Of a DNA stretch of 64,000 nt, positions 9,254 to 21,935 are shown in pieces (position 1 is the stretch's first letter; the number at the start of each line of letters is the position of its first letter). The notes below the pieces were generated by a model that worked only from the letters and a program-made list of their open reading frames with translations, had not been told where the DNA came from and did no database searches. The translations under genes and the position numbers were made by a program. Where the stretch lies: the NCBI GenBank assembly GCA_943787175.1, contig CALSLK010000015.1, positions 76,788 through 140,787 on the forward strand, read 5' to 3'. Source of the stretch: an uncultured Alphaproteobacteria bacterium (lineage in GTDB: Bacteria; Pseudomonadota; Alphaproteobacteria; SP197).

Positions 9254-10531
9254 TTATCCCTCTGACGAAAGGTCGAAAACCGTGCGGCCGCTGATGACGG
9301 TTCGGACTGCGCGCCCCTGTACCGGGCGGCCATCGAAGGGAGAGTTCTTCGACTTGCTCTGGAAGGCCTTGGAATCGATCCGCCACGGTGCTTCAAGGTC
9401 AATCAGAACCAGGTCGGCAGGCCCATCCTTGGCCAGTCTTCCGGCCCTGAGTTTAAGCAGGTCTGCCGGTGCGCTGGTCACCGTTTCCAGCGCGCGGGCA
9501 AGCGTCAGGTGTTCGTTGTGCACCAACTCCAGAACGAGCGGCAGCATGGTCTCAAGGCCAACGATGCCAAAGGCCGCCTGGACGAATGGCTGGCGTTTGC
9601 TGTCCTGATCGTGGGGCGCATGGTCGCTGGCGATGGCATCGATGGCGCCGTCCCTTAGCCCCGCGACCACGGCCTGGCGATCATCTTCCGAACGCAAAGG
9701 TGGCGCGCACCTTGGCAAAGGTGAGGTAGTCGCCCACCGCGTTTTCGTTGAGCGCGACATAGTGCGGAGCGGTATCGGCCGTCACGCGGACACCACGTGC
9801 CTTGGCCCTGCGCACGATGTCGATGGTTTCTGCTGTCGTGACGTGCGCCAGATGCAGGCGTCCGCCGGTCATCTCTGCCAGGCGTACATCGCGCGCAGCC
9901 ATGATGGCTTCGCTTTCGGGTGCCATGCCGGGCAAGCCCAGGCGCGTCGAAATCTCGCCGCTGTTCATGGCGCCGGAACCCGACAGGTTCATGTCTTCGG
10001 GTGGTGAATGAACATGGCATCGAAGATCGTGCCGTAGGAAAGGGCGCGGCGCAGGACGTTGGCGTTCATAATGGTGTTGAGGCCATCGGAGAAGGCAACG
10101 GCACCGGCTTCCTGCAGCAAACCGATTTCGGTCAGCTGTTCGCCTTTGCGCGCCCTGGTGATGGCGGCGATGGGGTGCACCTTGACCAGCGAGGTCTCGC
10201 GCGCGCGGCGTTCGATGAAGTGGACCAGCGCAACATCGTCGATCGGCGGATTGGTGCTGGGCATGCAGGCGATCGTGGTGATGCCGCCAACCGCTGCCGA
10301 CCGGCTGCCGCTATGGATGGTTTCCTGATGTTCGAATACCGGGCTCGCGCAGATGCGCGCGCATGTCGACCAGACCCGGAGCCAGAACCAGGCCTCTTGC
10401 GTCGATCTGCTCGATGTCTTCGGCCAAGCGCTCTGCCGTGATATGGCGCCCAGATCCGCGATGTTGTCGCCGTCTGAGATCAAGCCGCCGATCTTCGTCG
10501 AGGCCGCTGGCAGGGATCGACAAGCGTGCAT
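9254..10531 (-). pseudogene. pyrC: dihydroorotase (pyrC), reading frame interrupted at least four times
   Basis: Dihydroorotase segments appear in three minus-strand frames: N-terminal [13 protein letters not shown] / [14 protein letters not shown] / [23 protein letters not shown], central CMPSTNPPIDD, C-terminal AIDAIASDHAPHDQDSKRQPF...GLETMLPLVL. TGAATG junction with the pyrB stop. Confidence 0.7.
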
Positions 10532-11560
10532 TCAGATAGGCGACGCGCCCGCCTTCTGCTTTTTGATCGAAAGGTCGGCAATCCGGGCCATCACTGATTG
10601 TGCTCCGGGTTGTCGAGATTGCGGGCCAGAGACCTCCAGGCAGGCCTGGCGCACGGCCACGCCCATCTCGACCTGATCGAGAATGACGCTGCGGTTGATG
10701 TCGTCGGCGACTTCGCTGTCGATCTCGATGCCGCGGTTCATGGGGCCGGGATGCATGATGAGCGCATCGGGCTTGGCGACGGCCAGCTTGTCGTAGATCG
10801 AGGCCGTAGAACTGGAAGTACTCGCGTTCGGACGGCACGAAGCTGCCCTGCATGCGTTCGGTCTGCAGGCGCAGCATCATCACGATATCGCACGTCTTTC
10901 AGGCCTTCGCGCATGTCGTGGATGCACCTCGACCCCATAACGGTCCGCTTTGGTCGGCAGCAGAGTCGGCGGCGCCACCAGCCGCACGCGCACGCCCATG
11001 GTGTTGAAGAGCAGGATGTTGGAGCGCGCCACGCGGCTGTGGGCGATATCACCGCAGATCGCGACGGTCAGGCCCGAAAGTGTTCCCAGGCGCCGACGGA
11101 TGGTCAGCGCATCCAGTAGGGCCTGTGTCGGATGTTCATGGCTGCCGTCGCCCGCGTTGATCACCGCAGCATTGACCGCGTTGGCGAGCAGCTTGACCGC
11201 GCCGCTGTCGGGGTGGCGCACGATCAGGACATCCGGGTGCATCGCGTTCAGCGTCGCTGCCGTATCGATCAGGGTTTCGCCCTTCTTGATGGCGCTGGTC
11301 GTGGGCGACATGTTGATGACGTCGGCGCCCAGTCGTTTGCCCGCAAGCTCGAACGACGTGCGCGTGCGCGTCGAGCTTTCGAAGAACATGTTGATCTGGG
11401 TGCGACCGTGCAGCGTGTTCTGCTTCTTCTCGGCGCGCCGATTAAGCGCGACGTACGAATCGGCGAGATCGAGCAGATGCACGATGTCCTGGGGCGACAA
11501 ATCCTCGATCCCGAGGAGATGGCGGTGGGTGAAACGGTATGGGGATGGATCAGCTGTCAT
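10532..11560 (-). pseudogene. pyrB: aspartate carbamoyltransferase catalytic subunit (pyrB), about three frame shifts
   Basis: N-terminal 226 aa intact ([20 protein letters not shown]). The C-terminal part continues in other frames ([29 protein letters not shown]; [19 protein letters not shown]...VRQACLEV). Confidence 0.75.
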
Positions 11561-11597
11561 GCTGAAACCGGGTTCTTAAAGAAAGACCTGCCCGCCG

Positions 11598-12510
11598 TCA
11601 TCCGAAAAGCGCCAACATGATCGGAATGCTGAGGATAGCTCCGGCAGTGCCTGTGCTGATGATCCCTGCCATCAGTTCTGCATTGCCGCCCATTTGGCGG
11701 GCAAGGACATAGGCTGCGGGTGAACAGGGCAGGGCTGCAAACAGCACCACAATGGATTTGGCATAACCGTCCACGCCCAGCATGGAACAGAAAACCCAGG
11801 CGACAAATGGGAGGACAAAGAGTTTCAGCAGGCTGGCCAGAGCAAGGGTTCGCTTGTCCGACCGCATGCTCTGGAGATGCAGGGCCGCACCAACCGAGAT
11901 CAGGCCAAACCCAAGAGCGGCGGCACCCAGGATGGCCAGCGTTCTGTCGAGGACCAGAGGAAGCCGTATCTCCAGCAGATTCATGGAGAGCCCGATAATG
12001 CAGGCCAACACGACCGGGTTTGTCGCAATCGCACGCAGGACACTCGGAATGGAGGTCCCGGTCGGCGAAGCATACCGTGCCAGCGCTGCCGTGCTGATGA
12101 CATTCACGGTGGGAATGTAGGCCGCCAGTAGAAGTGCGAAGAGTGCCAGGCCGTCGTCACCGTAAAGCGCATAGGCCGCAGCCAACCCGGCGTAACTGTT
12201 GAACCGGATTGCGCCCATCAGGAATGAAGGGAAATCCTTGCCGTTCAGGCCCAGGGGTTTGCGCAGGGTCAGAACGAGCAGCGTGACAACGACGGCCGGC
12301 AGCAACAGAGAGAGCAGGGATGTCAGCACCTCGCCATCGGGAAGGCTGGTCGTCATCAGGGTGTGACCAGCAGAGAGGGAAACAGCACGAAGTAGGTGAT
12401 CCGCTCGACCGTTCGCCAGAACGTCACATCGGGTGCCAGCCATCGACGCAGGCCGATGCCCAGGGCAATGACCAGAAAGATCGGCATGAGAGCCGTGAAG
12501 ATGGCGATCA
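11598..12510 (-). pseudogene. AEC (auxin efflux carrier) family transporter, one frameshift near 12360
   Basis: N-terminal MIAIFTALMPIFLVIALGIGLRRWLAPDVTFWRTVERITYFVLFPSLLV is in one frame and the C-terminal 281 aa (…GIISTGTAGAILSIPIMLALFG) in another. Confidence 0.6.
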
Positions 12511-12520
12511 TGGCCTGATC

Positions 12521-13085: not shown

Positions 13086-13373
13086 ATGTCGCTCGATAAA
13101 GCCACTGTCGCCAGGATATCGCGTCTGGCGCGCATCGCTACCACCGAAGAAGAGCAAGAGCGCCTGGCAGGCGAGCTTGGCGGCATCCTGGCATGGGTGG
13201 AGCAACTGGGTGAGGTCGACACCGATGGGGTGGAGCCGATGACCAGCGTTGTGGAGATGCTTTTGAAGTCCCGCGAAGACGTGGTGAGCGATGGCGGCAT
13301 TGCTGATGACGTCGTCAGAAACGCGCCGAAATCAGCGCATGGATTCTTTGTTGTGCCCAAGGTGGTGGAATGA
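13086..13373 (+). CDS. gatC: Asp-tRNA(Asn)/Glu-tRNA(Gln) amidotransferase subunit C
   Basis: 95 aa; typical GatC sequence ([31 protein letters not shown]). Confidence 0.9.
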
Positions 13374-14839
13374 CCGACCTGACCGATCTCTCAATTGCAC
13401 AAGCACGCGACCTGCTGGCCAAGGGCGACCTGTCGTCGAAAGAGCTGACGCAGGCCCAGGTCACATCGATGGAAGGCAAGCGTGAGCTGAACGCCTTTAT
13501 CACCGAGACGCCTGATAAGGCCCTGGAGATGGCTGAGGCTTCCGACACAAGGCGCGCCAAGGGCGAAACTGGCAAGCTGGAAGGCATACCCGTCGCCATC
13601 AAGGACCTGTTTTGCACCAAGGACGTGCTGACCACGGCGGGCTCCCACATTCTGGACGGATTCCGCCCGTTTTATGAATCGAGCGTTACCACCAACATGT
13701 TCCGCGAAGGCGCGGTCATGCTGGGCAAGACCAACCTTGATGAATTCGCCATGGGCTCGGGCAACCTCACGAGCTACTACGGCGGCGCTATCAACCCCTG
13801 GCGCGCCAAGGGCGACAATCGCAACCTGGTTCCCGGTGGCTCTTCTGGTGGCTCGGCTTCAGCAGTGGCCGGCCGTATGGCGCTGGGCGCTACGGGCACC
13901 GATACCGGCGGCTCGATCCGTCAGCCTGCAGCGTTTACCGGGATCGTTGGCTTGAAACCGACCTATGGGCGTTGTTCGCGCTGGGGCATCGTGGCGTTTG
14001 CCTCGTCGCTCGATCAGGCTGGTCCCATGACCCGCTCTGTGCGCGATTCAGCGATCATGCTGGGTGCCATGGCAGGCCATGACCCCAAGGACTCGACCTC
14101 CGCGGATATTGCGGTTCCCGATTTCGAGGAAGGCCTCAACGGCGGCGTGAAAGGCCTCACGATCGGCATTCCCAAAGAGTATCGCGTTGACGGCATGCCC
14201 GAAGAAATCGAGACACTCTGGCAGCAGGGCATCAAATGGCTCGAGGAGCAGGGCGCCAGAACGGTCGAGATCAGCCTGCCGCACACCAAGTACGCATTGC
14301 CTGCCTATTACATCGTGGCGCCTGCTGAGGCCTCGTCGAACCTTGCCCGTTACGATGGCGTGAAGTTCGGCCTGCGCGTTGAATCCGATGACCTCACAGA
14401 GATGTACGAAAAGACCCGGGCGGAAGGGTTTGGGGCCGAGGTGAAACGCCGGGTGCTGATCGGGACCTATGTGCTCTCGGCTGGTTACTACGATGCCTAT
14501 TATCTCCAGGCTCAGAAGGTGCGCACGCGTATTGCTGATGACTTCAAACAGGCCTGGCAGCAGGTCGATGCAATTCTGACACCTGCTACACCTTCGGCTG
14601 CGTTCAGCGCCGATGATCCACCCAGTGATCCGCTTGCCATGTATCTCAACGATGTCTTTACCGTGCCGGTTAACCTGGCAGGACTGCCAGGTATCTCGGT
14701 GCCTGCAGGCCTCACCGGCGATGGATTGCCGATGGGATTGCAGGTGATCGGCAAGGCGTTTGATGAAGCAACCGTGCTGCGCATCGGCCAGTCGCTGGAA
14801 GATGCAGCAGGGTTTGATGCCCGCCCGGAAGGATACTGA
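13370..14839 (+). CDS. gatA: Glu-tRNA(Gln) amidotransferase subunit A
   Basis: 489 aa amidase-signature protein ([12 protein letters not shown]); overlaps gatC stop. Confidence 0.95.
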
Positions 14840-14841
14840 TC

Positions 14842-16296
14842 ATGGGAATCACCCTTGAAGGCGCCACCGGCACCTGGGAATACGTGATCGGGCTGGAAGT
14901 CCATGCCCAGATCATCTCCAATTCAAAGCTGTTTTCCGGCGCTTCGACGGAATTTGGATCCGAGCCTAACAGTCAGGTTTCGCCCGTGGATGCGGGCATG
15001 CCTGGTATGTTGCCGGTGATCAATCTGGCGTGCATCGAACAGGCGGTGAAGACCGGTCTGGCGATCAACGGTGAGATCAACCTGACCTCGGTATTCGATC
15101 GCAAGAACTACTTCTATCCAGATCTGCCGCAGGGCTATCAGATCTCGCAGTTCAAGCAGCCTGTGGTGACCGGTGGCCATATCGATATTGAACTTGAAGA
15201 CGGCACGCAGAAACGTATCGGTGTCGAGCGCCTGCATGTCGAGCAGGATGCCGGCAAGAGCCTGCATGATCAGGACCCCAACGCTTCGTATGTCGATCTC
15301 AATCGCTCCGGTGTGGGCCTGATGGAGATCGTGTCGGATCCGGATATGCGCTCGCCCGAAGAGGCGGCGGCTTATGTGCGCAAGCTGCGCACGATCGTGC
15401 GTTATGCCGAAACCTGTGACGGCAACATGCAGGAAGGCTCCATGCGCGTGGACGCCAACGTATCGGTGCGCAAGGCCGGCGAAGAATTCGGAACGCGCTG
15501 CGAAATCAAGAACCTCAACTCCGTGCGTTACATGCAGCGTGCCATCGAGTTCGAGGCAATGCGCCAGATCGACGTTCTCGAGGCTGGCGGAAAGATCGAC
15601 CAGCAGACCCGCCTGTTCGATGTCGCCAAGAACGAGACACGCAGCATGAGGAGCAAGGAAGAGGCGCATGATTACCGCTACTTCCCCGATCCCGACCTGT
15701 TGCCCCTGCGCTTCGAGCAGGCCTGGGTGGATGAGATCGCTGCCGGTATGCCTGAACTTCCTGATGCCAAGATGGCCCGTTTCATGAAGGAGTTCGGGCT
15801 TTCTGCCTACGACGCCGACGTGTTGGTTGCTGAGCAGGAAAACGCGCATTTCTATGAGCATGTTGCCGAGGGTCGCGACAAGAAACTTGCTGCCAACTGG
15901 GTGATTTCCGAATTGTTCGGTCAGCTCAACAAGGCTGGCAAGACGGTTGAAGACAGCCCGGTGAGTGCCGAAGCTCTGGGTGAGCTGATCGACCTCATCA
16001 CCGATGACACCATTTCGGGACGTATCGCCAAGGACGTCTTTGCCGACATGTTCGAATCCGGCAAGGCTGCTGGTGTGATTGTTGAAGAGAAGGGCCTCAA
16101 ACAGGTTACTGACACCGGTGCCATTGAAGCCGTGATCGATGAGGTGATGGCGCGCGAGCCGGAGAAACTGGCTGAGTATCGCGGCGGCAAGGACAAGCTG
16201 TTCGGCTTCTTTATCGGCCAGGTCATGAAGGCGTCCGGCGGCAAGGCCAATCCGAAAGCGGTCAACGAACTTCTCAAGACCAAGCTGCAGGGTTGA
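14842..16296 (+). CDS. gatB: Asp-tRNA(Asn)/Glu-tRNA(Gln) amidotransferase subunit B
   Basis: 484 aa; GatB N-terminus [13 protein letters not shown]...[15 protein letters not shown]. Confidence 0.95.
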
Positions 16297-18578
16297 ACGC
16301 CTTGAAGGGCGCCCACACCGACACACTTCTGGCCCAGGCCCTGGGTTGGCTGGAAGAGACAACCGGCGGTGTTGCTCCCTCGATCCAGGTCGCCACGACT
16401 TACGTGCGTGACCCCGCCATGCCATCGTCCGAAGGGCTGTGGTACAGCCGCCCGGATAACCCCTGCTATTGGCAGGTCGAAGCACTGCTTGCCGAACTGG
16501 AACATGGCGAAGCGGCCATGGTGACAGGCTCTGGCTCGGCCTCCATGGCGATGGTGTTTGAGGCACTCTCGACCGGTGACCACGTGCTCATGCCGCATTA
16601 TGCCTATGGCGGCGTGCATTACCTCATCAACGACATGGCCAATGCCTGGGGCATCGAGATCGACGTCTATCAGACCGGTGATCTCGATGACATGGCACGG
16701 CTCGTTCGCCCTGGACAGACGAAGGTGGTCTGGGTTGAAACGCCGTCAAATCCTGAGATGGTCATTGTTGATCTGGAAGCCGCGGCCCGGATTGCCCACG
16801 GTGTTGATGCCAAGCTGGTGGTGGATGCCACCTTCGCACCGCCGCCGATCTGCAGACCTCTGGATCATGGCGCTGATGTAGTCTTGCACTCGGGCACCAA
16901 GTTCCTGAACGGCCACAGCGATGTGGTGTGCGGCACCATCGCCACGCGTGTGAAGGATGACTTCTGGCAGCGCCTGGACCGCATGCGCATGCGCTCGGGC
17001 GCCATGCTGGGTCCCTTCGAGACCTGGCTGCTGCTGCGCGGCCTGCGCACGCTGCATCTGCGCATGGAGCAGGCGCAGGCAAGTGCACAGAAGATCGCGG
17101 AATTCCTTGAGGGACATGTAGACGTTGGTCGGGTGTTTTATCCAGGGCTTGCCTCCCATCCCACGCACGACCTGGCCAAACGCCAGATGTCGGGCTTTGG
17201 TGCGATGGTGTCGTTTGATGTTACGGGATCCATGGAGGACGCGCTGAAAGTCTGGGGCGGTACCAGAATTTTCAAAAACGCAACGTCGTTGGGTGGTCCC
17301 GAAAGTCTTGTTGAACATCGCAAGAGTTCCGATGGCTACGAATCGCCCGTGCCACCCAACCAGCTTCGCCTTTCGGTTGGCCTTGAAGATGCTGATGACC
17401 TGATCGCCGATCTTGATGCCGCGCTGACCGGTAAGCCGACAAACCGGCCCCAGGCGCGCGCTACGAAGATTGCGCAGGGGCTTGGCTGGACGAGCAGGGA
17501 CCATAAGGCGGTCGTCCTGCCGGTTCACATGGCATCGACCTATGCCACCGATCCGGCGACTTACGGCAAACCCTATGCCTATGCGCGCGATCAGAATCCG
17601 ACCTATGAGCAGCCAGAGGCCCTGATCGCTGATCTGGAGGGGGGGTTTGAAGCGCGTCTGTTTGCTTCCGGCATGGCGGCGGTTTCGGCCGTGTTCCAGT
17701 GCCTTAAAGCCGGCGATCACGTGGTCATTCAGGACACGCTCTATTGGGCTATCCGCGGCTTGATGAAGCAGGTTGTGGAGGGCTGGGGCATCGAAGTGAC
17801 CTGGGCTCCGACAGGCGACCTCGAGGCGTTGCGCAGGGCAGTCCGAAAGGGTGAAACTCGCATTGTCTGGTTGGAAACGCCCGCCAATCCCACCATGGCC
17901 GTGACCGATATAGCCGCCGCCACGGCCATTGTGCGGGAAGCCGGTGCTTTGAGCGTGGTCGACAATACATTTGCCACTCCCTTGCTGACACGACCGTTGG
18001 AACTTAGTGCTGATTTCGTCATGCACTCGGCCACGAAATATCTGAATGGTCACAGCGATGTGGTGGCCGGTGTGCTGGTTGCCCGTGTGGAAACACCGTT
18101 CTGGGACCAGATTCGCCACATTCGGCACATGACGGGTGCGATCCTTGGGCCGTTTGAGGCATGGTTGCTGATGCGCGGTATGCGCACGCTCGAGATCAGG
18201 GTCGCGCGGGCCTGCCGGAACGCCATGGCAATTGCGCAACATCTGGATGGCCACGAAGCGGTCGATCTGGTGCTTTATCCCGGTCTCACGGCATCAAACG
18301 ATCATGATGTTTCCGCCCGACAGATGAGCGGCGGCTTCGGCGGCATGCTCTCCATCCGCATTCGGGGCGGGGAGGCCGCGGCCCAAAGGGTCTGGGCCCG
18401 CTTTAAACTCTTCAAGATTGCGACCTCGCTGGGCGGCGTAGAAAGCCTGGTCGAACATCGCGCTACGGTAGAGGGGCCAGAGAGTCCCGTGCCGGACGAT
18501 CTGCTGCGCCTGTCAGTCGGGGTCGAACACATCGATGATTTGATCGGCGATCTTGACCAGGCGTTGCAGGCTGCCTGA
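16293..18578 (+). CDS. tandem in-frame fusion of two Cys/Met-metabolism PLP-dependent (transsulfuration, CGS/CGL/OAH-sulfhydrylase family) domains
   Basis: 761 aa. Domain 1 (about 1-380) contains [13 protein letters not shown]. Domain 2 (about 400-761) contains [13 protein letters not shown]. The two halves align with each other over their full length, and the linker [21 protein letters not shown] has no stop. TTG start overlaps gatB stop (TTGA). Confidence 0.8.
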
Positions 18579-18597: not shown

Positions 18598-19308
18598 ATG
18601 CCGTTCATCCCCATCAGCGATGACAATCCGCTACGCCTGATCCGCTTTCAGGTCGTGACGATCAGCCTGATCGCGATCAACGCCATTGTATTCCTCATCC
18701 AGCAGTTGATGGACGACCAGCAGCTTTGGGAGTTCTGGCTGAGCTACGGCATGATTCCGGCCGTATTGTCGGGGGAGGCACAGCTGACCTCGGACCTGGA
18801 GAGGATACCGGCCTGGCTGACTCTGTTTACCTCGACCTTCCTGCATGATGGTTACTGGCACCTGGGTGGAAACATGCTGTTTCTCTGGGTGTTCGGTGAC
18901 AACGTCGAGGACGCCACGGGCCATTGGCGATTTTTGGTTTTCTATTTTGCATGTGCGGCAGCAGCCGGGTTGGCTCAGACGGCCATCGACCCGGCTTCAC
19001 AGGTACCCATGGTGGGGGCCAGCGGGGCCGTTGCCGGCGTGCTGGGCGCCTATATGATGTTGCATCCACGGCGTCGGATGCTGATCCTGTTGATGCGGAC
19101 CATACCGCTTAGACTTCACGTGGGACTGGTCCTTGTGATCTGGATTGTCTTCCAGGTCGGTGCGGGAATCTGGTTCACCAGCACGGGTGAAAGTGAGACC
19201 GCCTGGTGGGCGCATGTCGGTGGCTTTGCAGCAGGTATGATTTTGATCCTGATGTTGCGAAATCGCGGTGTTACCCTTTTTGATCGCGTGTCTGAAACTG
19301 AAACCTAA
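18598..19308 (+). CDS. rhomboid family intramembrane serine protease
   Basis: 236 aa, about 6 TM; catalytic GASGAVAGVLGAY serine motif and downstream AHVGGFAAG histidine. Confidence 0.8.
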   Translation: MPFIPISDDNPLRLIRFQVVTISLIAINAIVFLIQQLMDDQQLWEFWLSYGMIPAVLSGEAQLTSDLERIPAWLTLFTSTFLHDGYWHLGGNMLFLWVFGDNVEDATGHWRFLVFYFACAAAAGLAQTAIDPASQVPMVGASGAVAGVLGAYMMLHPRRRMLILLMRTIPLRLHVGLVLVIWIVFQVGAGIWFTSTGESETAWWAHVGGFAAGMILILMLRNRGVTLFDRVSETET

Positions 19309-19332: not shown

Positions 19333-19950
19333 TTGATTAAGCTCTATACTGCGCCAACACCGAACGGTCGCAAGGTCTCCATCATGCTCGAGGAAGTCGG
19401 GCTTGCCTATGAAGTCCACCGCATTGATATGGGGGCTGGCGATCAGTTCGAACCAGCGTTTCTCGAGATCAGTCCCAACAACAAGATCCCGGCCATCGTG
19501 GATCCCGATGGTCCCGGCGGCGCGCCAATCAACGTGTTCGAATCTGGCGCCATACTGATCTACCTCGCGGAGAAAACCGGCCAGTTGCTGCCCACTGATA
19601 CGCGGGAGCGCCTGAGCGTTTTGCAATGGTTGATGTTCCAAATGGGCGGCGTTGGCCCGATGTTCGGGCAGGCCAATCACTTCATCAAATTTGCCGCTGA
19701 AGATGTGCCCTATGGCAAGAAACGTTATCGCGAAGAGGCGATGCGGCTGCTGGGCGTGATGGACCGGCGTCTGGCAGAGGTTGAGTTTCTCGCAGGCGAT
19801 TACTCCATTGCCGATATCGCGACCTGGCCATGGGTCATGCGTGCGGAATGGTACGACACCGACTGGAGCCAGTTCCCCAACACGAAACGCTGGTATGACC
19901 AGATCGGTGAGCGGCCGGCGGTACAGCGCGGAACGGCAGTGCCGGATTAG
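19333..19950 (+). CDS. glutathione S-transferase, Nu class (YfcG/YghU-like disulfide reductase type)
   Basis: 205 aa; N-terminus MIKLYTAPTPNGRKVSIMLEEVGL...ISPNNKIPAIVDPDG...FESGAILIYLAEKTG closely matches YfcG-type GSTs. Confidence 0.8.
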   Translation: MIKLYTAPTPNGRKVSIMLEEVGLAYEVHRIDMGAGDQFEPAFLEISPNNKIPAIVDPDGPGGAPINVFESGAILIYLAEKTGQLLPTDTRERLSVLQWLMFQMGGVGPMFGQANHFIKFAAEDVPYGKKRYREEAMRLLGVMDRRLAEVEFLAGDYSIADIATWPWVMRAEWYDTDWSQFPNTKRWYDQIGERPAVQRGTAVPD

Positions 19951-20812
19951 GCTTCCCGTTCCAGCGGGCGGGTGAGGCAGGTGGGGCCGCCTTCACCCTT
20001 GCGGCTGATCTCGACACCCGAATAGGTCACGACTTCGCACCGGCGGCTTCCAGGCGGCGGCGGGTTTCGGGGTTACCCTCGACCATGACGCAACGGCGCG
20101 GCGCGGTGGCAAGCACGTTGCAACCCATGCTCTCGAACTCCTCATCGGGGACTTCCACGAAGATGAGGCCGCGTTCCAGCAGCCAGTTGCGGAACGGCAC
20201 CGGCATCAGGGGCGAATAGACCAGTGCCAGATCCTTATCGAGCGGCGAGAGGATCGACATGAGGTGGAAGACATCCGACGGGCCCTTGTAATGCGGCAGA
20301 GGGCAGACCTCGACATGGATGCCTTGACCCAGCAGAGCCTTCAACTGGCGGATACCTTCGGGATTGGTGCGATAACCGTTGGCAACGGCGCAGGTTTTAT
20401 CGTCCAGCCACACGAAGTCACCACCTTCAATCCTGCCTTCGCCGGTGATCGCGCCTGCAATTCCAACCCCGTGATCTGCATAACCGGACCCATTGACGCC
20501 GGGTTCGGCCTGGCGCGCGGGTTTGCCCATGTTGCAGTGGATGACACCGTTGGGTGAGGGGATCGAGGCGTCGCGGACATAGATGGAATCGATGGAGAGG
20601 CCTTCGCCGTCGGGCAGGTAATGCACCTTTGCATCGGCAAGACCCAGGGCTTCGACAAAACCTTCGTAGTCCGCCATGGCGGCACCGAAATCAGGCTCGC
20701 TGTGGTAGTTCAGCGGTTGCCATTGTGCACCGACGGTTTCGGGGTCGCGGAAGGCGTCGCGTGCGTGTCGCAGGCCGATGCTGGTGATCTTGCCGTATTC
20801 GTTGAAGGCCAT
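19947..20812 (-). CDS. DDAH/amidinotransferase-superfamily protein (dimethylarginine dimethylaminohydrolase-like), C-terminal frameshift near 20035
   Basis: Likely start is Met-28 of the track ORF (MAFNEYGKITSIGLRHARDAF). The canonical C-terminus EVVTYSGVEISRKGEGGPTCLTRPLEREA* with the conserved Cys is in a different frame from the preceding 260 codons. Confidence 0.65.
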
Positions 20813-20934
20813 GGTTTCATCCCTGATGAAGGCGCGCGATCCTAGCCATGCATTGTTCTGATGCAAGCTGGGAAAACATTGCGTTGACTGCAAGGGGTTG
20901 CCACATGGAGAGCAGGCAAACAGGAGAATGCGTC

Positions 20935-21348
20935 ATGGCGGAGAAACCTGATCTTCAGCAACCCGAACAGGCCTATCTGGTCTATGACGATGATTGTCCG
21001 GTTTGCCGCACCTGGTGCAGTGACGCCTTTCCCGATGACAGCGCCGGTGTTGTGCTGGTCGATGCGCGCAAGGACAGCGCTTTGATGGATGAAATCACTG
21101 CAGCCGGTCTCGATATCGATCAGGGCATGGTGCTGAAGGTCGGCGGCGAACTCCATTACGCATCTGATGCGGTGCGTGAGGCGACCCGGATGTCGCGACG
21201 TGGCGGATTGATGGGCAATCTCAATCGCGCTTTCTTTGGTTCACAGGCCCTCGCCAGGATCAGTTATCCCGTGGGGCGTGCGTTCCGGAATGGACTGTTG
21301 CGGATTTTGGGTATTCCCTTCATTCGCAATCTGGAGAACCGACCATGA
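20935..21348 (+). CDS. DCC1-like thiol-disulfide oxidoreductase family protein (DUF393)
   Basis: YLVYDDDCPVCRTW motif typical of DCC/DUF393 proteins; start taken as MAEKPDLQQ inside the longer track ORF. Confidence 0.55.
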   Translation: MAEKPDLQQPEQAYLVYDDDCPVCRTWCSDAFPDDSAGVVLVDARKDSALMDEITAAGLDIDQGMVLKVGGELHYASDAVREATRMSRRGGLMGNLNRAFFGSQALARISYPVGRAFRNGLLRILGIPFIRNLENRP

Positions 21349-21935
21349 CGACAACCTCAATTGCGCCGGGAACGGCCCGAGCGATCGAACTGGCCAAAGG
21401 CGATGTCGTGCGTGTGGTCAACAGTGAAGGCCATCAAGTGGTTGATACCTGGGCGTTTGCGGCAGACATGCCAAGCGATCAGCTTTCGATGGAACACAGC
21501 CGTTCAGCGACCTATCGCATTCTCTATCAGCCCGGCGACACGCTGGTGAGTACGTCGTTCCGGCCCATGCTGACGATCCTTGCTGATACCTCACCGGGAA
21601 TTCACGACACGCTGCATGCAGCCTGCAGTGCTGAAAGCAATGTTTTCTACGGTGCACCTGCCAGCCATCCCAATTGCCAGGACAATTTGAAGGGCGTTAT
21701 GGCGGCGCGGGGTGTCGAGCTGGTGAACATCCCCTGTCCCTGGAACCTCTTCGAGCATGCGCCGGTTCAGGCCGATGGCTCCCTGATTGATGAACCTTCT
21801 GCCGCCAAGGCCGGTGACTACGTGGAAATGCGTGCCGAGATGGACCTGGTTCTTGTCTGCTCGGCCTGCCCCTCCACAGTGGGTGATATCAGCCAGGGCG
21901 AGCCGCGCGGGGCGACAATCCAGGTAATCGGCTAG
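21345..21935 (+). CDS. DUF1989 (urea-carboxylase-associated family) protein
   Basis: 196 aa; pattern LAKGDVVRVVNSEGHQVVDTWAF...LVSTSFRPMLTIL...DTLHAACSAESN consistent with DUF1989; ATGA overlap with upstream gene. Confidence 0.6.
   Translation: MTTTSIAPGTARAIELAKGDVVRVVNSEGHQVVDTWAFAADMPSDQLSMEHSRSATYRILYQPGDTLVSTSFRPMLTILADTSPGIHDTLHAACSAESNVFYGAPASHPNCQDNLKGVMAARGVELVNIPCPWNLFEHAPVQADGSLIDEPSAAKAGDYVEMRAEMDLVLVCSACPSTVGDISQGEPRGATIQVIG

What the first reader, a model, noticed from the sequence alone, without database searches (positions are those of the whole stretch)
16293..18578. 761-aa in-frame tandem duplication/fusion of two transsulfuration PLP-enzyme domains, translationally coupled to gatCAB
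Cys/Met-metabolism PLP enzymes (cystathionine gamma-synthase/lyase, O-acetylhomoserine sulfhydrylase) are normally about 380-430 aa homotetramers. Here two complete domains are joined by a short linker in one reading frame.

Each domain has its own PLP-lysine motif ([13 protein letters not shown] and [13 protein letters not shown]). Their N-terminal regions align with each other ([12 protein letters not shown]… versus [10 protein letters not shown]…), which indicates an internal duplication rather than a read-through artefact. A frameshift error would break the frame, not preserve it.

The gene starts with TTG overlapping the gatB stop (TTGA). That implies co-expression with the tRNA-dependent amidotransferase operon, which is an unusual partner for sulfur amino-acid metabolism.
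Basis: seen in the sequence. Interest (0 to 1): 0.55.

Follow-up and report, generated by a model that had tools for sequence, protein, structure and literature searches.

The report
Conserved double-domain sulfur-amino-acid PLP enzyme
This is a real gene, conserved in one small group of marine and soil Alphaproteobacteria, in which two complete and apparently active copies of a cystathionine-synthase/lyase-type vitamin-B6 enzyme are joined in one chain; it is an undescribed variant of a well-known enzyme family, not an artefact and not a new kind of system.

Summary
ORF 16293/16302..18578 (+) encodes 761/758 aa with two complete PF01053 domains that are 48% identical. Each keeps the PLP lysine (K203, K582) and all other catalytic motifs.

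It is not an assembly artefact. About 18 protein clusters (93% to 55% identity) share the architecture and a linker of invariant length. Both halves are under strong purifying selection (dN/dS about 0.06).

The gatCAB link is conserved, and it predates the fusion: single-domain relatives occupy the same gatB-X-GST slot in other Alphaproteobacteria. That favours an in-situ tandem duplication, although the phylogeny cannot resolve this.

Both halves belong to one uncharacterised subfamily (ESLxEHR motif and an 8-residue deletion). They fail every curated MetB/CGL/MGL/MetZ cut-off. The whole protein passes several only because two domain scores add up.

The two active sites differ next to the catalytic Tyr (YGG against YW[A/G]xR). 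One derived relative (P0018) has lost the second site. Independent tandem fusions exist elsewhere in the family.

Substrate, quaternary topology and function remain inferred. Verdict: a new variant of a known kind, of moderate interest.

The parts
13086..13373 (+). gatC, first gene of the co-directional cluster
   Evidence: Pfam GatC, 78 bits. Same position in orthologous loci L001-L009.
13370..14839 (+). gatA (amidase subunit); overlaps gatC by 4 nt
   Evidence: Pfam Amidase, 491 bits.
14842..16296 (+). gatB; its stop TGA is at 16294-16296
   Evidence: Pfam GatB_N plus GatB_Yqey. Aligns to the L001 ortholog with no gaps.
16293..18578 (+). Two-domain Cys_Met_Meta_PP gene. It is 761 aa from TTG 16293, or 758 aa from the better-conserved TTG at 16302. 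The stop is at 18576-18578.
   Evidence: Full-length homologs P0001-P0018.
16293..17429 (+). N-half PLP domain (residues 1-379). Key residues: Y51/R53 arm, Y105 (YGG), D178, S200-x-T-K203 (Lys codon 16899-16901), H342-R343, R359.
   Evidence: Motif table and codon coordinates. dN/dS 0.061 against L001.
17430..17462 (+). Linker, residues 380-390 ([11 protein letters not shown]). Its length is invariant across the family, N384-R385 are conserved, and the rest of the sequence varies.
   Evidence: Family alignment. dN/dS is higher than in the domains.
17463..18575 (+). C-half PLP domain (residues 391-761). Key residues: Y430/R432 arm, Y484 (YWAIR), D557, S579-x-T-K582 (Lys codon 18036-18038), H722-R723, R739.
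   Evidence: dN/dS 0.067 against L001.
18598..19308 (+). Rhomboid-family intramembrane protease gene, 19 nt downstream; a conserved neighbour
   Evidence: Pfam Rhomboid, 123 bits. Present after the fusion gene in L002, L003 and L006-L009.
19333..19950 (+). Nu-class GST, similar to YfcG/YghU GSH-dependent disulfide-bond oxidoreductase. It is a conserved neighbour of both the fused and the single-domain forms.
   Evidence: NCBIfam PRK13972, 224 bits, below the 332 cut-off. tblastn finds it next to single-domain homologs in L012, L016, L018 and L025.

Best explanation
The gene encodes a single-chain pseudo-dimer of a fold-type-I, gamma-family PLP enzyme (Cys_Met_Meta_PP).

Origin. A single-domain gene of a distinct, uncharacterised subfamily already sat directly behind gatB and next to a Nu-class GST in ancestral Rhodospirillales-like Alphaproteobacteria. 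This subfamily is marked by ESLxEHR...VP..LRLSxG and an 8-residue deletion, in place of the canonical ESLxxHPAxMTHA. The gene was most likely duplicated in tandem in situ and the two copies fused through a short linker of fixed length. This happened once, before the present clade radiated.

Activity. Both halves remain catalytically competent and under equal purifying selection. Their active sites have diverged next to the catalytic tyrosine: the N-half has Y-G-G-(V/L)-H, SG(S/T)AS and TFxPP, while the C-half has Y-W-(A/G)-x-R, SGMAA and DNTFATP, as the single-domain relatives do.

Assembly (inferred). Two chains probably assemble into the family's usual tetramer-like particle, carrying two N-type and two C-type active sites. 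The pattern in the derived relative P0018 favours homotypic N:N' and C:C' catalytic pairs: its C-half has lost the Lys, the stacking Tyr and the Tyr/Arg arm, while its N-half is intact.

Expression (inferred). The gene is probably co-transcribed with gatCAB, rhomboid and GST.

Chemistry (inferred only). The reaction is most likely a C-S or C-gamma lyase or replacement on a sulfur amino acid, for example cyst(e)ine, cystathionine or homocysteine. There may be a link to sulfide or persulfide handling, suggested by the GST neighbour and by Nfu-domain fusions in sister proteins.

Shown: architecture, conservation, residue retention, selection, synteny. Inferred: mode of origin, quaternary topology, co-transcription, chemistry.
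For: The ORF and its two PF01053 domains. The halves are 48% identical.

18 full-length homolog clusters of 755-770 aa, with invariant junction length and equal conservation of both halves. The gene is exactly as long as its L001 ortholog and gatB has no gaps, although nearby genes carry indels.

All catalytic motifs are retained in every N-half and in every C-half except P0018_C, with systematic N/C differences beside the catalytic Tyr.

dN/dS is 0.061 (N) and 0.067 (C) for the closest pair, and no more than about 0.27 in all pairs.

The EHR subfamily is monophyletic at 100% bootstrap and shares 17-18 derived characters. The N-half clade and the C-half clade are each supported at 100%, and P0018 nests inside both.

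The gatCAB-fusion-rhomboid-GST order is conserved in L001-L003 and L006-L009, with start codons within -8 to +14 nt of the gatB stop in 5 of 6 loci. Single-domain homologs occupy the same gatB-X-GST neighbourhood in Arenibaculum and others.

No promoter-like or terminator-like site separates the genes, and GC content is uniform.

The AF2 model has pLDDT 83.9 and pTM 0.87, and both domains superpose on CGL/MetB structures with TMt of about 0.9.

The GST is YfcG/YghU-like. Sister proteins carry C-terminal NifU/Nfu domains with a CxxC motif.
Against: Phylogeny does not place the N- and C-halves as sisters. The C-halves group weakly (65%) with single-domain genes, and the informative characters split 1:0:1. 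A fusion of two older paralogs is therefore not excluded.

No unfused tandem intermediate was found.

The N:N'/C:C' inference rests on one derived homolog that is assumed to be functional.

There are no expression data. One ortholog (L002) has a 155-nt gap after gatB.

No member of the subfamily has been characterised, no riboswitch gives a metabolic clue, and the contexts of the NifU-fused relatives are not conserved. The proposed chemistry is therefore weakly supported.
Confidence: 0.6

Rival explanations
1. Assembly or annotation artefact: two ordinary adjacent genes were merged into one frame by an indel or a missed stop.
For: The same window carries scattered 1-bp indels in pyrC, pyrB and the Mem_trans gene at about 9260-12365, so frame errors do occur here. 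Adjacent pairs of separate family genes exist in other genomes (L011, L039, L049).
Against: The fused frame recurs in about 18 independent clusters and at least 7 independently assembled contigs, always with the same junction length. The gene is colinear with, and the same length as, its L001 ortholog. Both halves and the junction are in frame in all of them.
Confidence: 0.02
2. A bifunctional pathway fusion of two different enzymes, for example MetB-type cystathionine gamma-synthase plus MetC/CGL-type lyase, channelling consecutive transsulfuration steps.
For: The active sites differ systematically beside the catalytic Tyr, a known specificity region. The N-half has the canonical-like YGG and the C-half has YW(A/G)xR. 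Another tandem protein, P0167, does join two diverged paralogs. Separate adjacent gene pairs of this family, as in L011, are common.
Against: Both halves fall inside one subfamily, separate from canonical enzymes at 100% bootstrap. Neither half reaches any equivalog cut-off. Single-domain members of the same subfamily evidently function alone in the same genomic slot.
Confidence: 0.15
3. One half is a non-catalytic pseudo-domain that serves only as a structural or regulatory partner, as in the fused glycine-decarboxylase P-protein.
For: This has happened in relatives. P0018 lost the Lys, the stacking Tyr and the Tyr/Arg arm in its C-half. P0257 lost the Lys in its first half. P0121 lost the stacking Tyr in its second half. 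In this clade the N-half has the longer stem branch and unusual SG(S/T)AS and TFxPP substitutions.
Against: In the window protein, and in 17 of 18 clusters, every PLP-binding and catalytic residue is kept in both halves. dN/dS is equally low in both halves.
Confidence: 0.1
4. Origin by fusion of two long-separated paralogs of the EHR subfamily, with one recruited to the locus, rather than by in-situ tandem duplication.
For: The NJ tree groups C-halves with single-domain genes (65%) and puts the N-halves outside. The N-half shares Y-G with canonical enzymes where C-halves and single-domain genes have Y-W.
Against: Bootstrap support is weak and the informative characters are balanced. No free-standing N-type gene was seen among 80 loci or among the top hits. 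The single-domain form occupies the identical slot. A faster-evolving copy after duplication explains the same tree.
Confidence: 0.3

Closest known systems
Bacterial cystathionine gamma-lyase / gamma-synthase of the MetB/MccB/XometC group (PDB 4ixs, 8sf4, 3qhx, 6k1n, 7ba4)
   Same: Same fold and same Pfam family. Each half is about 42-44% identical to these enzymes, with Foldseek TMt of about 0.9. All PLP-binding and catalytic residues are conserved.
   Different: Those enzymes are single-domain chains of about 380-400 aa that form homotetramers. Here two domains share one chain. Both carry ESLxEHR and an 8-residue deletion where canonical enzymes have ESLxxHPAxMTHA. Per-domain scores fall well below the curated cut-offs.
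Single-domain and NifU/Nfu-fused members of the same 'EHR' subfamily (for example Arenibaculum pallidiluteum L012; P0021, P0029, P0067; oomycete P0103)
   Same: They share the subfamily motifs and the deletion and are 50-60% identical to the C-half. Some sit in the same gatB-X-GST slot.
   Different: They have one catalytic domain, or a catalytic domain followed by Nfu-type domains. None carries the N-type YGG/SG(S/T)AS/TFxPP active-site variant. They are also uncharacterised and unnamed by curated models.
Glycine decarboxylase P-protein (GcvP), fused form. The comparison rests on established knowledge and was not tested here.
   Same: Two fold-type-I PLP domains, derived by duplication, lie in one chain and form a pseudo-dimer. 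This is the classic precedent for this kind of architecture.
   Different: In GcvP only one of the two halves binds PLP. Here both halves keep the Lys and the full catalytic set. Only the derived relative P0018 resembles the GcvP situation. It is also a different family within fold type I.
Independent tandem PF01053 x 2 proteins in metagenomes (P0121, P0167, P0257)
   Same: They have the same two-domain architecture in the same Pfam family.
   Different: They are unrelated fusions of canonical-type domains, 32-37% identical to the query. One half is visibly decayed in P0121 (Tyr lost) and P0257 (Lys lost). None lies in the EHR subfamily.

Membership tests
Pfam PF01053 Cys_Met_Meta_PP (gamma family of fold-type-I PLP enzymes) | Full-length match to the family HMM above the gathering score | tested here: met
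   755 bits against a cut-off of 27, in two stretches. Each half covers nearly the whole 381-position profile.
Pfam PF01053 Cys_Met_Meta_PP (gamma family of fold-type-I PLP enzymes) | Schiff-base lysine in an S-x-T-K motif, Asp contacting the pyridine N, a stacking Tyr, the carboxylate-binding Arg of RLSVG, and the Tyr/Arg arm supplied to a partner site | tested here: met
   N-half: K203, D178, Y105, R359, Y51/R53. C-half: K582, D557, Y484, R739, Y430/R432. These are conserved across the clade except in P0018_C.
Pfam PF01053 Cys_Met_Meta_PP (gamma family of fold-type-I PLP enzymes) | Homotetramer (dimer of catalytic dimers) of chains of about 400 aa | not testable with these tools
The chain is twice the usual length.
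Pfam PF01053 Cys_Met_Meta_PP (gamma family of fold-type-I PLP enzymes) | Canonical C-terminal ESLxxHPAxMTHA segment | tested here: not met
   Both halves have ESLVEHR plus an 8-residue deletion, shared with the whole subfamily.
Cystathionine gamma-synthase MetB (NCBIfam NF005871 / TIGR02080 equivalogs) | A single domain scores above the curated equivalog cut-off | tested here: not met
   NF005871: N-half 357 bits and C-half 385 bits against 513. TIGR02080: 292 and 306 against 504.6. The whole protein scores 736 only because two domains add up.
Cystathionine gamma-lyase (NF005758, NF005810) | A single domain scores above the curated equivalog cut-off | tested here: not met
   NF005758: 298 and 347 against 440. 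NF005810: 301 and 324 against 594.
Methionine gamma-lyase (TIGR01328) | A single domain scores above the curated equivalog cut-off | tested here: not met
   294 and 338 against 549.7.
O-succinylhomoserine sulfhydrylase MetZ (TIGR01325) | A single domain scores above the curated equivalog cut-off | tested here: not met
   278 and 272 against 510.
Any of the above enzymes | Demonstrated catalytic activity or genetic complementation (metB/metC/metZ) | not testable with these tools
   No experimental data were found for any member of the subfamily in the searched literature.
GcvP-like tandem fold-type-I pseudo-dimer (architectural analogue, not a homologous family) | Two fold-type-I domains in one chain, of which only one retains the PLP lysine | tested here: not met
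   The two-domain part is met, but both lysines are retained in the window protein. The feature is met only in the derived relative P0018.
gatCAB operon member (co-transcription) | Same strand, negligible intergenic distance, no intervening promoter or terminator, conserved arrangement | tested here: met
   Overlap of 4 nt, or a gap of 5 nt. No signals were found. The arrangement is conserved in 6 orthologous loci and for single-domain homologs. Transcription itself was not tested.

The most novel reading that the evidence does not exclude
The fused protein is an obligate two-active-site machine of a so-far uncharacterised sulfur-metabolising PLP subfamily. The diverged N-type and C-type sites would catalyse two different, coupled steps, for example generating and then processing a cyst(e)ine- or homocysteine-derived persulfide or thioether. 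The protein would work with the adjacent Nu-class GST disulfide reductase, in parallel with sister proteins that are fused to Nfu iron-sulfur scaffold domains. The subfamily would then define a new route of sulfur mobilisation, distinct from both transsulfuration and the NifS/IscS/SufS desulfurases.
Probability: 0.12. Interest if true: 0.7.

Novelty: new variant of a known kind. Interest (0 to 1): 0.4.

Why it matters
These enzymes are a textbook case of homotetramers whose active sites are built across subunit interfaces. A naturally fused tandem version that has been conserved for a long time, with both sites alive but diverged, is a ready-made system for studying several questions:
- how duplicated subunits of an oligomer subfunctionalise;
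- which interface tolerates covalent linkage;
- how one site decays, since P0018, P0121 and P0257 provide natural dead-half comparisons.

It also flags a sizeable subfamily (EHR motif; single-domain, tandem and Nfu-fused forms) with no assigned function and no curated model.

There is a practical annotation hazard too. Two-domain proteins exceed the curated cut-offs of several mutually exclusive equivalogs simply because the scores add up, so they can be auto-named CGS, CGL or MGL without justification.

It does not reveal a new kind of system, and the gatCAB linkage may be only inherited gene order.

Tried and rejected
- **AFDB structural search:** the library was unavailable.
- **Inter-domain geometry:** model coordinates are not exposed, so I could not decide which tetramer interface lies within one chain.
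- **Genome-contig scan with the family alignment:** It did, usefully, reveal syntenic single-domain homologs. The three loci with matches longer than 2 kb were separate adjacent canonical genes, not fusions.
- **Literature searches** for tandem or fused cystathionine-family enzymes, NifU fusions and 'two Cys_Met_Meta_PP' found nothing relevant. One search failed on syntax.
- **Neighbourhoods of three NifU-fused relatives** were not conserved and gave no functional clue.
- **Rfam scan** for SAM or other riboswitches in the cluster and in the 155-nt spacer of L002: no hits.
- **Character-based quartet test** of N/C/single-domain relationships: uninformative, 1:0:1.
- **First tree attempts:** the first attempt to extract single-domain ORFs picked wrong frames or used a wrong regex and was redone.
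- **Rejected readings:** assembly artefact, horizontal acquisition of the gene (GC content is uniform), and a MetB-MetC type fusion (both halves lie in one subfamily).
Full report
**1. Observation**

The + strand carries an uninterrupted ORF from 16293 to 18578 (761 codons plus stop). Pfam finds two complete Cys_Met_Meta_PP (PF01053) domains, 755 bits in total, each spanning almost the whole 381-position profile.

The two halves (1-386 and 387-761) align end to end at 48% identity, E = 4e-119.

Upstream lie gatC (13086-13373), gatA (13370-14839) and gatB (14842-16296). Downstream lie a rhomboid protease gene (18598-19308) and a GST gene (19333-19950). The sequence ggTTGA does place a TTG over the gatB stop.

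**2. Is it an artefact?**

No. A search of 5.8 billion proteins returned about 18 clusters of 755-770 aa that cover 99-100% of the query at 93% down to 55% identity. They come from Alphaproteobacteria/Rhodospirillales metagenome-assembled genomes and a 3.75-Mb contig.

In the family alignment the junction has the same length in all 19 sequences, with a conserved Asn-Arg in an otherwise variable 11-residue linker. The two halves are conserved to the same degree across orthologs (N 92% to 63%, C 94% to 63%).

At the DNA level, dN/dS against the closest ortholog is 0.061 for the N-half and 0.067 for the C-half. It stays at or below about 0.27 in every pair. dS is near saturation, so these values are approximate.

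This control matters because the window does contain frame problems nearby. The orthologs of pyrC, pyrB and a Mem_trans carrier at about 9260-12365 carry scattered 1-bp indels relative to locus L001. In contrast, gatB aligns without a single gap, and the fusion gene is exactly the same length (2277 nt from the second TTG) as its ortholog.

**3. Start codon and operon**

There are two in-frame TTG codons, at 16293 and 16302. The closest orthologous locus (L001) lacks the first and conserves the second, and P0001 begins MKG... at that codon. The likelier product is therefore 758 aa, starting 5 nt after the gatB stop.

In 5 of 6 orthologous loci the start lies within -8 to +14 nt of the gatB stop, with ATG overlaps in L008 and L009. 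One locus (L002) has a 155-nt spacer.

No promoter-like or credible terminator-like site separates gatB, the fusion gene and rhomboid. GC content is uniform. No Rfam element, including SAM riboswitches, is present. Co-transcription with gatCAB is therefore a reasonable inference, but it has not been shown.

**4. Synteny and origin**

The order (dprA-plsY-pyrC-pyrB-Mem_trans-ruvX, divergently oriented) gatC-gatA-gatB-fusion-rhomboid-(glyoxalase)-GST recurs in L001-L003 and L006-L009. That covers the clade down to about 63% identity.

tblastn of the window's GatA, GatB, rhomboid and GST proteins against 80 loci holding single-domain relatives shows that a single-domain homolog occupies the same neighbourhood in other Alphaproteobacteria:
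- Arenibaculum pallidiluteum: gatA-gatB-X(396 aa)-GST;
- L016: gatB...rhomboid-X-GST;
- L018 and a Rhodovibrionaceae MAG (L025): X-GST;
- L027 and a Nisaea MAG (L036): gatB...X.

So the association with gatCAB and the GST predates the two-domain form. The simplest origin is an in-situ tandem duplication followed by loss of the intervening stop.

The phylogeny neither confirms nor contradicts this. In a bootstrapped NJ tree the N-halves (100%) and C-halves (100%) each form a clade. C-halves group with the single-domain genes at only 65%, and the N-half clade has the longer stem. In a character-based quartet test, 17-18 derived characters unite N-halves, C-halves and single-domain genes against canonical enzymes, but the informative characters among the three groups split 1:0:1.

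I found no unfused tandem pair of this subfamily. The N and C trees are broadly similar but conflict for P0013-P0015. For L008 against L009, dN is 0.284 for the N-halves and 0.088 for the C-halves, which suggests recombination between the halves of different lineages.

**5. Which family?**

Both halves belong to one distinct subfamily, monophyletic at 100% against XometC and a canonical gene pair. It is marked by ESLxEHR...(S/T)PVPxxLLRLSxG with an 8-residue deletion, where canonical enzymes have ESLxxHPAxMTHA...RLSVG. 92 of the next 100 database hits carry the motif.

Those relatives are mostly proteins of about 580 aa with the catalytic domain followed by NifU/Nfu-type domains with a CxxC motif. 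There are also single-domain proteins, including an oomycete one.

No curated NCBIfam equivalog covers the subfamily. Each half, the Arenibaculum single-domain protein, a NifU fusion and the oomycete protein all score best on PRK07811 'cystathionine gamma-synthase', at 357-385 bits against a cut-off of 513. They are below cut-off for every CGL, MGL, CBL and MetZ model.

The full-length tandem protein passes several mutually exclusive equivalogs (CGS 736 > 513, CGL 636 > 440, MGL 627 > 550) only because two domains are summed. That is an annotation trap.

The nearest solved structures are XometC, Thermobifida CGL and mycobacterial MetB, at about 42-44% identity.

**6. Are both halves catalytic?**

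The motif table and coordinates show that both halves of the window protein keep every element that defines the active site in this family (roles from established knowledge):

| Element | N-half | C-half |
|---|---|---|
| Tyr/Arg arm that reaches a partner's PLP phosphate | Y51/R53 | Y430/R432 |
| SGxA phosphate loop | present | present |
| Stacking/catalytic Tyr | Y105 | Y484 |
| ExPxNP | present | present |
| Asp contacting the pyridine N | D178 | D557 |
| Lys of the S-x-T-K motif | K203 | K582 |
| SLGG | present | present |
| Carboxylate-binding Arg | R359 | R739 |

This holds for all N-halves and for all C-halves except P0018_C.

The halves differ systematically in the specificity region next to the catalytic Tyr. 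The N-half has Y-G-G-(V/L)-H, as canonical enzymes do. The C-half has Y-W-(A/G)-x-R, as the single-domain subfamily members do. The N-half also has SG(S/T)AS where the C-half has SGMAA, and TFxPP where the C-half has TFATP. This fits two live but diverged active sites.

**7. Natural dead-half relatives**

P0018 (763 aa, found on at least 6 contigs) sits in a different context, LysR/GMC-oxidoreductase next to an integrase. It nests inside both the N and C clades, so it is a derived member.

Its C-half has lost the Lys (HGVSMQLNGH), the SGMAA loop, the stacking Tyr and the Tyr/Arg arm, and sits on a very long branch (0.63 against 0.27 for its N-half). Its N-half is intact.

Suppose an N-type site needs a Tyr/Arg arm from its partner, as in canonical enzymes (established knowledge). 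Then the partner of an N-half must be another N-half. That argues for homotypic N:N' and C:C' catalytic pairs formed between two chains, with the intrachain N-C contact corresponding to the other tetramer interface.

The AF2 model is confident overall (pLDDT 83.9, pTM 0.87). It is poor exactly in both arms (residues 19-50 and 400-433), which is weakly consistent with arms that lack their partner in a monomer.

**8. How unusual is the architecture?**

An exhaustive HMMER scan of 1.84 billion representatives collapses the clade into one 50% cluster (P0014). It also reveals independent tandem PF01053 x 2 proteins:
- P0121 (800 aa): a recent duplication whose second half has lost the stacking Tyr.
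- P0167 (795 aa): a fusion of two diverged paralogs.
- P0257 (841 aa): its first half has lost the Lys.

Other fusions occur too, with Asp kinase/homoserine dehydrogenase, a class I/II aminotransferase, or a PALP domain.

No solved structure covers more than one domain of the model (TMq <= 0.47). I found no paper describing tandem members.

Tandem fusion therefore recurs in this family and often ends with one dead half. The window's clade is distinctive because both halves stay intact under long-term selection. The classic architectural precedent is the fused glycine-decarboxylase P-protein, where only one half binds PLP (established knowledge, not tested here).

**9. Function**

The substrate is unknown. 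There are two context clues:
- The conserved neighbour is a Nu-class GST resembling the YfcG/YghU GSH-dependent disulfide-bond oxidoreductases (224 bits, below the 332 cut-off). It accompanies both the tandem and the single-domain forms.
- Sister proteins are fused to Nfu-type Fe-S scaffold domains.

Both hint at sulfide, persulfide or disulfide chemistry rather than classical methionine biosynthesis. The absence of a SAM riboswitch is mildly consistent with that. The neighbourhoods of the NifU-fused relatives are not conserved, so this remains a low-confidence inference.

**10. Verdict**

However, the halves are not ordinary MetB/MetC/MetZ domains, the duplication mechanism is unresolved, and the TTGA overlap is not the conserved start.

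This is a new variant of a known kind: a conserved single-chain pseudo-dimer within an uncharacterised subfamily of a well-known enzyme family. Interest is moderate (0.4).

Noticed in passing
window 9260-12511 (- strand): The orthologs of pyrC (9260-10582), pyrB (10631-11560) and a Mem_trans/auxin-efflux-type carrier (11601-12511) are frame-disrupted by scattered 1-bp indels relative to locus L001. pyrB has four 1-bp insertions and an out-of-frame block containing '**'. pyrC has about nine 1-bp indels. The carrier switches frame at about 12365. The adjacent gatCAB and fusion genes have none. These are either local assembly errors or genuine pseudogenes of pyrimidine biosynthesis.
   Followed up: partly
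L004 8001-10292 and L005 2524-4815 (protein P0018): A derived paralog or xenolog of the fusion gene has moved to a LysR/GMC-oxidoreductase context next to a phage-type integrase. It has lost the PLP lysine, the stacking Tyr and the Tyr/Arg arm in its C-half only. It is a natural half-dead version of the enzyme.
   Followed up: partly
proteins P0021-P0119 (for example L010 5935-7725, L090, L091, L092): There is a large, apparently undescribed group of proteins of about 580 aa in which the same EHR-type Cys_Met_Meta_PP domain is followed by two NifU/Nfu-like domains, the last one with a GGCxGC motif. They occur mainly in Burkholderiales and other Proteobacteria. Their genomic contexts vary.
   Followed up: partly
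L008 vs L009 (P0014 vs P0015); trees: The N-half and C-half trees conflict for P0013-P0015. The C-halves of P0014 and P0015 are close (dN 0.088), while their N-halves are distant (dN 0.284) and fall in different subclades. This suggests homologous recombination between the halves of different lineages.
   Followed up: partly
proteins P0121, P0167, P0257, P0162, P0237, P0198, P0231: Other multi-domain architectures occur in the same enzyme family in metagenomes. There are three independent tandem PF01053 x 2 proteins, two of them with one decayed half. There are also fusions to Asp-kinase/homoserine dehydrogenase, to homoserine dehydrogenase alone, to a class I/II aminotransferase and to a PALP (CBS/CysK-type) domain.
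   Followed up: partly
window 19333-19950 (+); also L008 12110-12769 and L009 10772-11431: The conserved downstream GST is Nu-class (YfcG/YghU-like disulfide-bond oxidoreductase, below the curated cut-off). In two orthologous loci a PNPOx_N (pyridoxamine-5'-phosphate-oxidase-like) gene follows the GST, which places a possible PLP-salvage gene in the same cluster as a PLP enzyme.
   Followed up: no
window 20027-20893 (-) and 21345-21935 (+): A DDAH/amidinotransferase-like ORF and a DUF1989 / urea-amidolyase-associated-protein-like ORF lie just downstream, both far below the curated cut-offs. The first is absent from the otherwise syntenic locus L001.
   Followed up: no
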